A stretch of 64,000 nucleotides of DNA, taken from NCBI RefSeq assembly GCF_009914755.1, contig NC_060927.1; one strand, written 5' to 3'. This stretch comes from the human T2T-CHM13v2.0 reference genome, Homo sapiens. This document shows, piece by piece, positions 55,895 through 57,958 of the stretch (positions within the stretch are counted from its first letter, which is position 1; the number at the start of each line of letters is the position of its first letter). The notes under the pieces are model-generated. The model saw only the letters and a list, made by a program, of their open reading frames with translations. It was not told the origin of the DNA and ran no database searches. A program made the translations under genes and the position numbers.

Positions 55895-57321
55895 GGATTC
55901 CCTCTTTTTCTATTGATTGGAATAGTTTCAGAAGGAATGGTACCAGTTCCTCCATGTACCTCTGGTAGAATTCGGCTGTGAATCCATCTGGTCCTGGACT
56001 CTTTTTGGTTGGTAAACTATTGATTATTGCCACAATTTCAGAGCCTGTTATTGGTCTATTCAGGGATTCAACTTCTTCCTGGTTTAGTCTTGAGAGAGTG
56101 TATGTGTCGAGGAATGTATCCATTTCTTCTAGATTTTCTAGTTTATTTGCGTAGAGGTGTTTGTAGTATTCTCTGATGGTAGTTTGTATTTCTGTGGGAT
56201 CGGTGGTGATATCCCCTTTATCATTTTTTATTGTGTCTATTTGATTCTTCTCTCTCTTTTTCTTTATTAGTCTTGCTAGCGGTCTATCAATTTTGTTGAT
56301 CCTTTCAAAAAACCAGCTCCTGGATTCATTGATTTTTTGAAGGGTTTTTTGTGTCTCTATTTCCTTCAGTTCTGCTCTGATTTTAGTTATTTCTTGCCTT
56401 CTGCTAGCTTTTGAATGTGTTTGCTCTTGCTTTTCTAGTTCTTTTAATTGTGATGTTAGGGTGTCAATTTTGGATCTTTCCTGCTTTCTCTTGTAGGCAT
56501 TTAGTGCTATAAATTTCCCTCTACACACTGCTTTGAATGCGTCCCAGAGATTCTGGTATGTGGTGTCTTTGTTCTCGTTGGTTTCAAAGAACATCTTTAT
56601 TTCTGCCTTCATTTCGTTATGTACCCAGTAGTCATTCAGGAGCAGGTTGTTCAGTTTCCATGTAGTTGAGCAGCTTTGAGTGAGATTCTTACTCCTGAGT
56701 TCTAGTTTGATTGCACTGTGGTCTGAGAGATAGTTTGTTATAATTTCTGTTCTTTTACATTTGCTGAGGAGAGCTTTACTTCCAACTATGTGGTCAATTT
56801 TGGAATAGGTGTGGTGTGGTGCTGAAAAAAATGTATATTCTGTTGATTTGGGGTGGAGAGTTCTGTAGATGTCTATTAGGTCTGCTTGGTGCAGAGCTGA
56901 GTTCAATTCCTGGGTATCCTTGTTGACTTTCTGTCTCGTTGATCTGTCTAATGTTGACAGTGGGGTGTTAAAGTCTCCCATTATTAATGTGTGGGAGTCT
57001 AAGTCTCTTTGTAGGTCACTGAGGACTTGCTTTATGAATCTGGGTGCTCCTGTATTGGGTGCATAAATATTTAGGATAGTTAGCTCCTCTTGTTGAATTG
57101 ATCCCTTTACCATTATGTAATGGCCTTCTTTGTCTCTTTTGATCTTTGTTGGTTTACATAGTTCACACAAAGGCTCTTTAAAGCCTTAGTAAATGCACAT
57201 GTCGCTGCCACTAACTAGATTACCTGGAGAGGAAACTGAAAGTAGAGAGAGATAGAGGTTTAAAGTCTGTTTTATCAGAGACTAGGATTGCAACCCCTGC
57301 CTTTTTTTGTTTTCCATTGGC
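55895..57321 (-). mobile_element. Internal L1HS-type ORF2 fragment (endonuclease/linker region), with no poly-A and no TSD, interrupted at 57157-57262
   Basis: Open frame over ~1.26 kb; residues HTLIMGD, NYLSDH, WDAFKA, NAYKRK, EMDTFL and YQRYMEE match active human L1 ORF2p as I recall it and differ from the L1PA3/4 in this window. Confidence 0.92.
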
Positions 57322-57958
57322 ATAAAGAAATGCTCATTTTCTGTTGCTGGTACTGTTGTTGAGTCCTAGTTCTTTCCTGACTTATTTCCATAAGAACCTC
57401 GTGCTTAAGAATCCTGTATATTTCATAGTCAAGGAGGATAGAGAACCATAAAGCAGGTTTAGATTTTTAATCTATGACTTTTTGCCTTTAACAAGAGCAA
57501 TGCTCAGTCTTGCAAGGAAGATAGACATTACATTATTGAAATGACTTTTAAGGCAGAAGAGCAGCCGAATTCTACATATTTTATTTTTTGGCTTTTTAAA
57601 TGAAAACTGTCTTTAGCTTTGTATTTTTAAGAGATTCAAATTCAATACTTTAAGAAATTCATGAATAAAGCATGTTTCAACCTTAAATTACATATAAGCA
57701 TGATTTATAATTTATTGCCCATAAAACTTTTATCAAAGAAACAAGAAGAGTGGTATGTATGCAAATACAGGGATGCAAAAATAAACATATTTCTATAAGC
57801 TGTGCACCAGAAAAGAAAGGGCATTTGATTTATATTGGATTGTAGCCACATTTAAAAGAGAGGTACAAGGAGGAGCTGGTACCATTCCTTCTGAAACTGA
57901 AGAACAGTATAGATTTTGCTTTCTGAGTGTACTCTTTCAAGCAGACACGATTCCCTTA
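57151..57958. other. Scrambled mosaic of templated segments copied from 54058-54844, two L1s and an orphan sequence
   Basis: Direct alignment within the window; eight donor pieces of 27-163 bp with two mismatches in total; most junctions have 1-6 bp microhomology. Confidence 0.95.

What the first reader, a model, noticed from the sequence alone, without database searches (positions are those of the whole stretch)
55895..57958. Very recent 15-junction complex rearrangement: an L1HS-type fragment plus a scrambled mosaic of nearby DNA
Seen in sequence, in order (product = source): 55895-57156 = L1 (-); 57151-57178 = 54093-54120 (+); 57175-57222 = 54284-54331 (+); 57222-57262 = 54058-54098 (+); 57257-57321 = the same L1 resuming (-); 57322-57336 = orphan; 57336-57498 = 54115-54277 (inverted, 1 SNV); 57499-57562 = orphan; 57562-57575 = L1 (+); 57573-57686 = 54648-54761 (+); 57684-57838 = 54483-54637 (inverted, 1 SNV); 57835-57861 = 54453-54479 (+); 57859-57898 = L1 (+); 57897-57958 = 54783-54844 (+); then unique distal DNA. 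Junction microhomologies include GGTTTA, TCTT, A, GGTTTA, TAC, TAA, TTGG, AGA and CT. About 630 bp of copied DNA carries only two mismatches, so the event is very young. Established knowledge: chains of short templated pieces with microhomology are associated with FoSTeS/MMBIR and polymerase-theta end joining. Inference: a single catastrophic repair event; 14 junctions within ~800 bp is unusually dense.
Basis: partly seen in the sequence, partly recalled or inferred. Interest (0 to 1): 0.92.

Follow-up and report, generated by a model that had tools for sequence, protein, structure and literature searches.

The report
L1 pieces stitched with scrambled local DNA
A 2-kb insertion in an intron of a human non-coding RNA gene is a patchwork of two retrotransposon (L1) pieces and eight shuffled snippets copied from DNA 1-4 kb upstream; it looks like the scar of one messy DNA-break repair, not a working element.

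Summary
Window 55895-57958 contains a both-ends-truncated young L1 ORF2 fragment, two short L1 pieces in the opposite orientation, about 77 nt with no template, and eight copies (27-163 nt) of 54058-54844.

- The (+) L1 pieces come from a different L1 than the main fragment.
- One of the two "SNVs" is a hybrid 10-nt imperfect-microhomology junction.
- The two "orphans" are one stretch split by an 8-nt duplication.
- "Very recent" is not established.

New findings:
- The eight local pieces tile their source almost without re-use (P about 5e-5) and have mixed orientation.
- All three split carrier tracts resume collinearly.
- Both L1 tracts have their L1-3' ends facing the flanks.
- An ancient repeat is cut exactly at the left junction.

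Best reading (0.55): one break was repaired by reverse transcription of two L1 RNAs plus microhomology-mediated stitching of short tracts from the resected upstream side. This is a germline example of known kinds: endonuclease-independent L1 insertion, and tiled short-insertion chains. The empty allele could not be examined here. Interest is moderate.

The parts
54058..54844 (+). Source zone. This contiguous single-copy DNA is where the eight local pieces A-H were copied from. It lies 1.05-3.84 kb left of the left junction.
   Evidence: The pieces cover 626 of 787 nt and only 12 nt are used twice. AT fraction is 0.689 against 0.626 for the window.
55799..55895 (+). End of an ancient interspersed repeat copy that stops at profile position 84, exactly at the L1 junction. 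This marks a true breakpoint in older DNA.
   Evidence: nhmmer with a profile built from 20 genomic copies, E 2e-16. The remainder of the repeat was not found in the orphans or the right flank.
55895..57156 (-). T1a, the main L1 tract. It is an internal ORF2 fragment whose L1-3'-most base abuts the left flank. It has no poly(A) and no L1 3' end.
   Evidence: 99.5-99.8% identical to 11 of 11 fetched copies, with 3 private differences at 56064, 56093 and 56692. The reading frame is open over 440 codons when read together with T1b. It is only 96.1% identical to the nearest L1 in the window.
57151..57178 (+). Piece B = 54093-54120. It is joined to T1a through GGTTTA (6 nt).
57175..57222 (+). Piece D = 54284-54331. 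It is joined to B through TCTT (4 nt).
57222..57262 (+). Piece A = 54058-54098. It is joined to D through A (1 nt) and ends in GGTTTA.
57257..57321 (-). T1b. The same L1 tract resumes at the next L1 base, so GGTTTA is present on both sides of block B-D-A.
   Evidence: 65/65 identity in 10 of 11 relatives, contiguous with T1a in those copies.
57322..57335 (.). Orphan o1 (14 nt). It ends in AATGCTC(A).
   Evidence: No match of 14 nt or more elsewhere in the window. Its 12-mers match at chance level.
57336..57498 (-). Piece C' = 54277-54115, inverted. It carries one clean mismatch at 57349 and is flanked by the direct repeat AATGCTCA (57329-36 and 57499-506).
   Evidence: direct reading.
57499..57561 (.). 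Orphan o2 (63 nt). It starts with AATGCTCA. Together with o1 it reads as one stretch of about 70 nt interrupted by C'.
   Evidence: It has no other copy in the whole genome, no significant hit in 134 kb of local or L1 sequence, no match to the ancient-repeat profile, and L1 likeness at chance level (54 of 400 shuffles).
57562..57575 (+). T2a, an L1 sense piece of 14 nt. It corresponds to main-fragment positions 55978-55965.
   Evidence: I7; 14/14 in 11 of 11 relatives.
57573..57693 (+). Piece G = 54648-54768 (exact to 57686). It is joined to T2a through TAC (3 nt).
57684..57838 (-). Piece F' = 54637-54483, inverted (exact from 57692). The G/F' junction is a hybrid 10-nt imperfect microhomology.
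   Evidence: direct reading.
57835..57861 (+). Piece E = 54453-54479. It is joined to F' through TTGG (4 nt).
57859..57898 (+). T2b, an L1 sense piece of 40 nt that resumes 1 nt after T2a in L1 coordinates. It comes from a different L1 template than T1. It is joined to E through AGA (3 nt).
   Evidence: It has 2 mismatches to T1a and to 11 of 11 of T1's relatives. This exact 40-mer occurs 1391 times in the genome, against 50 for T1's version.
57897..57958 (+). Piece H = 54783-54844. It is joined to T2b through CT (2 nt). Its end (GATTCCCT, 57949-56) repeats the first bases of T1a (55896-903).
   Evidence: direct reading.

Best explanation
One double-strand break (or collapsed fork) in the LINC02008 intron was repaired in a single event that left a 2064-bp patchwork.

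Shown:
- The patchwork consists of two L1 tracts from two different L1 templates, one untemplated or ancestral stretch of about 70 nt, and eight short copies of a single 787-nt stretch lying 1-4 kb to the left.
- The pieces are joined mostly by 1-6 nt (once 10 nt imperfect) microhomologies.
- Each of the three 'carrier' tracts is interrupted once and resumes in register.

Inferred:
1. The L1 tracts are reverse transcripts of L1 RNAs made at or captured by the two broken ends. This would be endonuclease-independent, as in 'non-classical L1 insertions'. Each tract has its L1-3' end towards a flank, as cDNA primed from a 3'-OH would.
2. The left end was resected over several kb. The local pieces derive from one pass of short, discontinuous DNA synthesis over (or copying from) that exposed stretch, which is why they tile it and are each used only once.
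3. The pieces and cDNAs were joined by microhomology-mediated annealing and fill-in with some true template switching, which explains the in-register returns.
4. DNA to the right of the break, including the rest of an ancient repeat (at least about 200 bp), was probably lost.

No function is implied. It is a mutational scar in an intron.
For: Single event:
- The source is tiled, with 12 of 638 nt re-used (9/200000 under random placement).
- Five of 7 neighbouring pieces abut within 14 nt (60/50000 reach 5 or more).

Microhomology: 32 nt over 9 junctions against 0.76 nt per junction expected.

L1 involvement by reverse transcription:
- T1 is an internal ORF2 fragment lacking the L1 3' end and poly(A).
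- It is 99.5-99.8% identical to 11 of 11 fetched copies, and all 39 other scored copies list at 99-100%. Its template was therefore a member of the small young family, not one of the abundant old L1s.
- The only L1s in the window are 96% and 84% identical, so no nearby DNA template is seen.
- T2 carries the other allele at 2 positions, so two templates were used.
- Both tracts have their L1-3' ends outward. A 2024 preprint on induced L1 expression attributes this geometry to ligation of opposite DNA ends extended by reverse transcription from different templates. It also reports insertions with genomic DNA templated near the site and reverse transcription at pre-existing ends.

Germline precedent: 15 of 21 non-classical L1 insertions carry 4-312 bp of extra non-L1 DNA and 18 of 21 have target deletions.

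Local pieces:
- Tiling plus mixed orientation (6 direct, 2 inverted) plus microhomology match the 'short insertion tiles' near resected ends described in 2026.
- Size and clustering resemble TST jumps and MM-BIR chains.

Breakpoint in old DNA: the ancient repeat is cut at 55895.
Against: - No empty allele was available. The break position, any deletion, and the status of the orphans are therefore inferred.
- No poly(A), endonuclease site or RNA-specific mark proves reverse transcription. The orientation argument alone is worth only about 1 in 4 by chance.
- The tile lies at least 1050 bp from the junction, not at the end itself.
- Fragment models do not predict that T1a/T1b, o1/o2 and T2a/T2b all resume collinearly (0.0156 by random ligation, or 0.0019 with proximity). 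Template-switch models do not predict the tiling. A hybrid has to be assumed.
- The 8-nt repeat GATTCCCT at both ends of the whole insert is unexplained by this account.
- If only one strand of the local zone was exposed, the alternation G(+) F'(-) E(+) inside one L1 tract needs incorporation into both product strands.
Confidence: 0.55

Rival explanations
1. Purely DNA-templated replicative repair (FoSTeS/MMBIR, or Pol theta-type synthesis). A single nascent 3' end hops between local DNA and L1 DNA copies elsewhere in the genome and returns. No reverse transcription is involved.
For: Microhomology is present at 8 of 9 scorable junctions (2 nt or more), totalling 32 nt. There are in-register returns to the same template at 3 of 3 carriers. 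Source bases are used twice at the A/B and B/C boundaries, which needs copying rather than cutting. Similar microhomology-rich chains of 21-245 bp pieces are ascribed to mitotic MM-BIR.
Against: The source is tiled with almost no re-use and orientation is mixed. Both are stated to be incompatible with MMBIR-type chains. The only non-local templates are L1, from two different elements. The long one belongs to a small young family whose version of one 40-mer occurs only 50 times genome-wide. This is unlikely if distant DNA were sampled at random. No such L1 lies in the 64-kb window.
Confidence: 0.17
2. Two steps. An L1 fragment (T1) was already inserted here (a non-classical L1 insertion). Later a replication or repair accident near its right end added the local pieces, with T1b and the orphans being the resident template to which synthesis returned.
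For: It explains naturally why synthesis returns to T1 at GGTTTA and to the orphan stretch, both being resident DNA. The orphans have no other source in the genome, as expected for native flank. T1 has 3 private differences in 1327 nt against 1 clean mismatch in 638 nt of copies, which allows an older L1.
Against: T2 (54 nt of L1 sense) does not come from T1, since 2 of 40 positions carry the allele common elsewhere. The later event would therefore still need a second L1 template. The first bases of T1 and the last bases of H share GATTCCCT, which links the two ends of the whole insert and would be a coincidence of roughly 1e-4 (my estimate: 4^-8 times a few offsets) if the ends formed at different times. 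The mismatch counts do not differ significantly.
Confidence: 0.13
3. Shatter-and-ligate. An extra double-stranded copy of 54058-54844 (for example from the sister chromatid), plus L1 and other fragments, was broken into pieces and rejoined at random by end joining (micro-chromothripsis).
For: Breakpoints in the source are shared by neighbouring pieces (5 of 7 within 14 nt). Orientation is mixed, and some stretches are lost (121, 10 and 14-21 nt gaps).
Against: The same hexamer GGTTTA sits at the L1 break and at the A/B boundary of the source. Microhomology is far above chance, so the joins were homology-guided. Source bases 54093-98 and 54115-20 occur in two pieces each. Random ligation rarely gives three collinear carrier pairs (0.0156).
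Confidence: 0.08
4. Artefact. The structure is an assembly or amplification chimera, or a change that arose in the CHM13 cell line rather than in the germline.
For: None from the sequence. Read-level data could not be inspected here.
Against: Junctions show ordered microhomology, in-register returns and tiling. These are biological signatures that are not expected from mis-assembly of long reads. The flanks are single-copy. That the assembly was made from unamplified long reads is recalled, not checked.
Confidence: 0.03

Closest known systems
Non-classical (endonuclease-independent) L1 insertions, NCLI (Sen et al. 2007, PMC1920257; passages and part of Table 1 seen)
   Same: A young L1 fragment truncated at its 3' end, with no poly(A), sits at a probable break. 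It is accompanied by non-L1 'extra nucleotides' (15 of 21 loci, 4-312 bp, some matching other genomic sites) and by probable target deletion (18 of 21 loci). Two of 21 loci had internal L1 rearrangements.
   Different: Here there are about 640 nt of extra DNA in eight local pieces plus about 77 nt of orphan sequence, two L1 templates, and nested interruptions. The pre-insertion allele was not available, so absence of a target-site duplication and the nature of the cleavage site could not be tested. The locus is not the one chr3 locus in their main text (chr3:196.4 Mb; 'chr3' occurs once).
Non-canonical insertions after induced L1 expression (Mendez-Dorantes et al. 2024 preprint, PMC11702581; abstract and sections 7, 13, 16 read; supplementary figures S9/S10 not seen)
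   Same: Inserted reverse-transcribed sequences in opposite orientation are ascribed to ligation of two ends extended from different templates. [quoted passage not shown] Reverse transcription at pre-existing ends and DNA-templated extension by ORF2p are discussed.
   Different: Those events mostly keep poly(A), endonuclease sites and target-site duplications, and have one to a few extra pieces. This locus has none of the canonical marks and 13 internal junctions. It sits in a genome assembly and is not an experimental clone.
Tiled chains of short insertions in breakage-replication/fusion (Nat Genet 2026, PMC12807874; passages and all of section 13 read) and TST jumps (Umbreit et al. 2020, PMC7347108; passages)
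   Same: Chains of short pieces come from a hotspot within 10 kb of a breakpoint. The pieces line up at their origin 'with little gap or overlap', have mixed strand orientation at the destination, and are joined with microhomology. The pieces are proposed to be single-stranded DNA made by discontinuous fill-in on a resected 3' overhang.
   Different: Pieces here are shorter (27-163 nt, median about 55, against 183-184 bp). The chain is interleaved with L1 tracts. Carrier tracts resume in register, which the fragment model does not predict. [quoted passage not shown]
Mitotic MM-BIR / chromoanasynthesis at induced breaks (Ngo et al. 2026, PMC13065848; abstract and section 7 read)
   Same: Many short templated insertions occur (21-245 bp, median 77 in their most complex molecule). 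About half of junctions have microhomology. Hotspots give several, mostly non-overlapping, insertions.
   Different: Their templates are scattered over many chromosomes and plasmids. Here all non-L1 templates lie in one 787-nt stretch in cis.
Twin priming / 5'-inverted L1 insertions (named in the passages; original paper recalled, not read)
   Same: There are two L1 tracts in opposite orientation, each with cDNA polarity running inward from a flank.
   Different: Twin priming uses one RNA and keeps the poly(A) end and the target-site duplication. Here the tracts overlap in L1 coordinates, come from two templates, and lack the 3' end.

Membership tests
Non-classical (endonuclease-independent) L1 insertion, criteria of Sen et al. 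2007 | L1 truncated at its 3' end by more than 20-25 bp | tested here: met
   T1 ends inside ORF2. All four related copies displayed (L004, L005, L008, L011; 4 of the 11 fetched) continue as L1 beyond both ends of the fragment. The translation covers 440 ORF2 codons only.
Non-classical (endonuclease-independent) L1 insertion, criteria of Sen et al. 2007 | No poly(A) tail | tested here: met
   The L1-3'-most base (55895) abuts unique flank directly. There is no A/T run at either end of the insert.
Non-classical (endonuclease-independent) L1 insertion, criteria of Sen et al. 2007 | No target-site duplication of any length | tested here: inconclusive
   The insert begins and ends with GATTCCCT (55896-903; 57949-56). 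Both copies are native to their templates (L1 and source 54835-42), so the repeat may be an insert feature or a target duplication. Deciding needs the empty allele.
Non-classical (endonuclease-independent) L1 insertion, criteria of Sen et al. 2007 | Insertion site unlike the L1 endonuclease consensus, and pre-insertion state verified in other primates | not testable with these tools
   No other human or ape sequence is held. The junction reads ...CAATGT|G and ...CCCTTA|TGC, with no T-run.
Tiled short-insertion chain (breakage-replication/fusion) / TST jumps | Chain of two or more short (1 kb or less) insertions at one junction | tested here: met
   Eight local pieces of 27-163 nt lie within 808 bp.
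Tiled short-insertion chain (breakage-replication/fusion) / TST jumps | Origins clustered within 10 kb of a breakpoint | tested here: met
   All eight come from 54058-54844, 1.05-3.84 kb from the left junction. None comes from the right side.
Tiled short-insertion chain (breakage-replication/fusion) / TST jumps | Tiling at the origin with little gap or overlap | tested here: met
   12 nt are re-used out of 638, and 5 of 7 neighbours lie within 14 nt. Null probabilities are 9/200000 and 60/50000.
Tiled short-insertion chain (breakage-replication/fusion) / TST jumps | Mixed strand orientation at the destination and microhomology between neighbours | tested here: met
   Six pieces are direct and two inverted, alternating within one block (G, F', E). 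Microhomology.
Serial template switching (FoSTeS/MMBIR), as characterised | Microhomology at junctions and templated (copied) segments | tested here: met
   Source bases 54093-98 and 54115-20 are present in two pieces each.
Serial template switching (FoSTeS/MMBIR), as characterised | Origins expected with large gaps or overlaps, and all pieces added to one strand | tested here: not met
   The source is tiled. Strand coordination cannot be proven without knowing the template strand, but if one strand of the zone was the template, 6 pieces went into one product strand and 2 into the other.
Twin-priming L1 inversion | Both inverted segments from one L1 RNA, with poly(A) and target-site duplication | tested here: not met
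   The segments differ at 2 of 40 shared positions. There is no poly(A).
L1HS subfamily | Subfamily-diagnostic bases (3' UTR; recalled) | not tested
   The fragment lacks the 3' UTR. Only overall identity was measured: 99.5-99.8% to 11 of 11 fetched copies.

The most novel reading that the evidence does not exclude
The whole 2-kb patchwork was first built off the chromosome as a small nicked-circular or cohesive-ended DNA, from L1 cDNAs plus displaced fill-in fragments of the resected end, and was then inserted.

The scars would be:
- the 8-nt repeat GATTCCCT at both insert ends, which is the H-to-L1 microhomology joint of the circle opened with a stagger;
- the block B-D-A, which is a circular permutation of source order A-B-D bounded by GGTTTA;
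- the 8-nt AATGCTCA duplication around C'.

That would make this a heritable insertion of an extrachromosomal mosaic DNA assembled by L1 reverse transcription and break repair.
Probability: 0.08. Interest if true: 0.8.

Novelty: new member of a known kind. Interest (0 to 1): 0.5.

Why it matters
It has no visible functional consequence. It lies in an intron of a long non-coding RNA with no annotated elements (hub annotation).

Its value is as a base-pair-resolved natural specimen in a finished human genome. It joins two processes so far documented mainly in cancer genomes and engineered cells: reverse transcription of L1 RNA at a broken end, and chains of tiled short insertions from a resected end.

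It carries features that current models explain only separately. Tiling and mixed orientation favour fragments. In-register returns and duplicated microhomologies favour polymerase switching. It could therefore help to test those models once the empty allele, allele frequency and related events in pangenomes are examined.

Tried and rejected
1. L1 fragment copied from the nearby L1s in the window: rejected. Identity is 96.1% and 84.1%.
2. (+) L1 pieces copied by fold-back from the main fragment: rejected. There are 2 of 40 mismatches, and both match the allele that occurs 1391 times genome-wide against 50 for the main fragment's version.
3. A source for orphan o2 elsewhere in the genome: none found (1 candidate, itself). 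No hit of 14 nt or more elsewhere in the window. No significant hit in 134 kb of held sequence.
4. Orphans as the continuation of the ancient repeat cut at 55895 (an idea from recalled similarity): no nhmmer hit at all.
5. Orphans as a third L1 tract (a 12-mer and a 9-mer resembling adjacent L1 bases): not significant. 54 of 400 shuffles reach the best combined score, and the best score lies elsewhere in L1. 12-mers are at chance expectation.
6. Apparent inversion of 57959-58297: an artefact of my slice ending at 58300. The right-flank repeat at 58080-58384 is a complete separate copy.
7. Apparent 3-kb inversion 52862-55895, because the repeat at 52674-52861 starts at profile position 77: rejected on reading. 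That copy continues rightwards in diverged form. This is a judgement from the sequence, not a statistical test.
8. Cruciform from the two convergent ancient repeat copies flanking the site: no direct similarity at E 0.01 or below.
9. Alternative ancestral order in which 54845-55894 is part of the insert: disfavoured. That stretch is single-copy, so it has no donor.
10. Right flank 57959-58090 used to find paralogues that might show the ancestral join: only itself was found.
11. Search for an L1 copy sharing the private bases. Of 40 scored among 1111 candidates, only the window is identical over 56040-56120. The one 1-mismatch copy is an old L1, 94.6% identical. This search is not exhaustive.
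12. First microhomology simulation was flawed because self-joins inflated the null. It was redone.
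Full report
**What is there**

The window is human chr3 (T2T-CHM13), inside an intron of LINC02008 (hub annotation).

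Reading the + strand, the order is:
- left flank up to 55894;
- T1a, L1 antisense, 55895-57156;
- B = 54093-54120;
- D = 54284-54331;
- A = 54058-54098;
- T1b, the same L1 continuing at its next base, 57257-57321;
- o1, 14 nt;
- C' = 54277-54115, inverted;
- o2, 63 nt;
- T2a, L1 sense, 14 nt;
- G = 54648-54761/68;
- F' = 54629/37-54483, inverted;
- E = 54453-54479;
- T2b, L1 sense, 40 nt;
- H = 54783-54844;
- right flank from 57959.

E-values of the local matches run from 2e-9 to 1e-87. In the whole genome the 821-nt source query matches only itself and the mosaic (9 of 9 matches in this locus). The 63-nt orphan matches only itself. The stretch between source and insert (54845-55894) is single-copy except for an ancient repeat.

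**Corrections to the observation**

1. Only one clean mismatch exists in the copies, at 57349. At the G/F' junction, positions 57684-57693 fit both templates at 8 of 10 positions. The product takes the F' base at 57687 and the G base at 57691 (read). This is a hybrid of an imperfect microhomology, not a later point mutation.
2. T2b differs at 2 of 40 positions from T1a and from 11 of 11 of T1a's closest relatives. T2b's exact 40-mer occurs 1391 times in the genome (661+730; reversed-pattern control 0). T1a's version occurs 50 times (27+23). A random error would not recreate the common allele twice, so two different L1 templates were used.
3. o1 and o2 share AATGCTCA (57329-57336 and 57499-57506), directly flanking C'. 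They read as one stretch of about 70 nt, interrupted by C', with an 8-nt duplication.

**The L1**

- When T1b and T1a are read together, one frame is open for 440 codons. The other two frames have 41 and 27 stops.
- All four related copies displayed (4 of the 11 fetched) extend as L1 beyond both ends. The tract is therefore an internal ORF2 fragment without the L1 3' end or poly(A).
- Of 2819 candidate copies, 40 were scored and all list at 99-100% identity.
- The 11 fetched copies differ from T1a by 3-6 of 1262 bases.
- Three bases (56064, 56093, 56692) are private to this copy in 11 of 11 comparisons. A non-exhaustive look (40 of 1111 candidates scored) found no copy sharing them.
- The L1s inside the window are only 96.1% and 84.1% identical.
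- This is L1HS-level youth. Subfamily-diagnostic sites lie outside the fragment and were not tested.

**Age**

I used a recalled rate of 0.5e-9 per site per year.
- One clean mismatch in 638 nt of paired copies gives 1.6 Myr (95% limits 0.04-8.7).
- Three private L1 differences in 1327 nt give at most 4.5 Myr (0.9-13). These differences may be inherited from an unsampled progenitor or be synthesis errors.

'Very recent' is therefore not established. 'Human-lineage' is likely but untested.

**Architecture found here**

(a) Microhomology. The nine junctions with both partners known carry 6, 4, 1, 6, 3, 3, 4, 3 and 2 nt. Random junctions in the same sequences average 0.76 nt, and 0 of 100000 simulated sets reach the total of 32.

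(b) Tiling. The eight pieces sum to 638 nt within a 787-nt span and re-use only 12 nt. Random placement in the same span does as well in 9 of 200000 trials. Five of 7 neighbouring pieces abut within 14 nt, and 5 or more occurs in 60 of 50000 trials. Pieces inserted at four different places in the product therefore partition one stretch, which ties them to a single event.

(c) Mixed orientation. Six pieces are direct and two inverted, alternating inside one block (G, F', E).

(d) In-register returns. T1a/T1b (+6 nt GGTTTA on both sides), o1/o2 (+8 nt) and T2a/T2b (-1 nt) all resume collinearly. Random ligation of 14 fragments gives three collinear pairs in 0.0156 of trials, and in 0.0019 if the pairs must also lie within four places.

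(e) Polarity. T1 has its L1-3' end at the left flank. T2 has its L1-3' end towards the right flank. T2 covers L1 positions that begin only 29 nt inside T1's end.

(f) Boundary repeats. Every inserted block is bounded by a 6-8 nt direct repeat:
- GGTTTA around B-D-A. It is native to both L1 and source, and B-D-A is a circular permutation of the source order.
- AATGCTCA around C'.
- GATTCCCT at the two ends of the whole insert (55896-903 and 57949-56). It is native to L1 and to the end of H.

(g) A breakpoint in old DNA. A profile built from 20 genomic copies of the ancient repeat at the left flank aligns to 55799-55895 and stops at profile position 84, exactly at the junction (E 2e-16). The rest of the repeat was found neither in the orphans nor in the right flank. 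Either at least about 200 bp were lost at the break, or that copy was already truncated.

**Most likely mechanism**

A single break in this intron was repaired with material of two kinds.

The L1 tracts are best read as reverse transcripts made at, or captured by, the two ends. The reasons are:
- The long tract comes from a small, young family rather than from the abundant old L1 DNA.
- No matching L1 lies nearby.
- Two templates were used.
- Both tracts have cDNA polarity pointing inward.

A 2024 preprint on induced L1 expression (abstract and sections 7, 13 and 16 read) ascribes oppositely oriented reverse-transcribed inserts to ligation of two ends extended from different templates. [quoted passage not shown] It also notes reverse transcription at pre-existing ends and DNA-templated extension by ORF2p.

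In the germline, 21 'non-classical' L1 insertions were described with 3' truncation, no poly(A), extra nucleotides in 15 of 21, and deletions in 18 of 21 (passages). This locus is not the single chr3 entry in their main text.

The local pieces match the 'tiles' of short insertions near resected ends described in 2026 (section 13 read in full). There, tiling at the origin and mixed strands at the destination are used to argue against MMBIR and for single-stranded fragments made by discontinuous fill-in, joined through microhomology. They also resemble TST jumps (median 183 bp, 1-10 kb hotspots, a 13-junction chain; passages) and mitotic MM-BIR chains (21-245 bp, median 77, 51.8% microhomology; section 7).

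No single published model covers both the tiling and the in-register returns. I therefore assume a hybrid: fragments or single-use templates from the resected left side, joined by annealing, fill-in and some true template switching.

Steps shown: the composition, junctions, tiling, polarity, two L1 templates, and the cut repeat. Steps inferred: RNA as the L1 template, resection, the origin of the pieces, the deletion, and that everything happened at once at one break.

**Rivals**

- DNA-only template switching: 0.17.
- A resident L1 fragment hit by a later accident: 0.13.
- Shatter-and-ligate of an extra copy: 0.08.
- Artefact or cell-line change: 0.03.

The empty allele would separate most of them, and it could not be obtained with the tools held. 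The genome collections here contain no other human or ape sequence.

**False leads**

- Two apparent inversions were checked and dropped.
- A recalled likeness between the orphans and the ancient repeat was not supported.
- An apparent third L1 tract in the orphans is at chance level.

**Verdict**

The structure is real and arose in a single event. It is a germline member of known kinds (endonuclease-independent L1 insertion combined with a tiled short-insertion chain). It is unusually dense and well preserved, and has no evident function. Its interest is as a specimen for mechanism, and that interest is moderate.

Noticed in passing
window 7960-13984 and 14557-15842: There is a roughly 6-kb L1 in the same orientation as the fragment; its stretch 10519-11779 is 96.1% identical to 55895-57156. 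A further L1 piece is 84% identical. Both are older elements and neither is the template of the insert.
   Followed up: partly
window 36704-36919, 38417-38689, 52674-52861, 55671-55895, 58080-58384: These are five copies of one ancient interspersed repeat family, which I did not name. The two copies nearest the insert are convergent but show no direct similarity to each other.
   Followed up: partly
window 55896-55903 and 57949-57956: GATTCCCT occurs at both ends of the whole insert. It forms the first bases of the L1 tract and the last bases of local piece H. This would be the natural microhomology for an H-to-L1 joint, yet the two ends lie 2 kb apart. It is unexplained.
   Followed up: partly
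window 57349; 57687 and 57691: All departures from perfect copying in the local pieces lie within 14 nt of a junction. With only one clean mismatch this is not significant; my estimate is that about 35% of copied bases lie that close to a piece end.
   Followed up: no
window 54058-54844: The source zone is more AT-rich (0.689) than the window as a whole (0.626). Several piece boundaries fall in A/T runs such as TTAAA and TAAAAGAGA. No test against the L1 endonuclease site preference was made.
   Followed up: no
L053 (G000:C4:157304834-157306600): This is an old L1 copy, 94.6% identical to the fragment. It happens to share the fragment's base at 56093. The match is a coincidence of an old variant and does not mark a progenitor.
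   Followed up: yes
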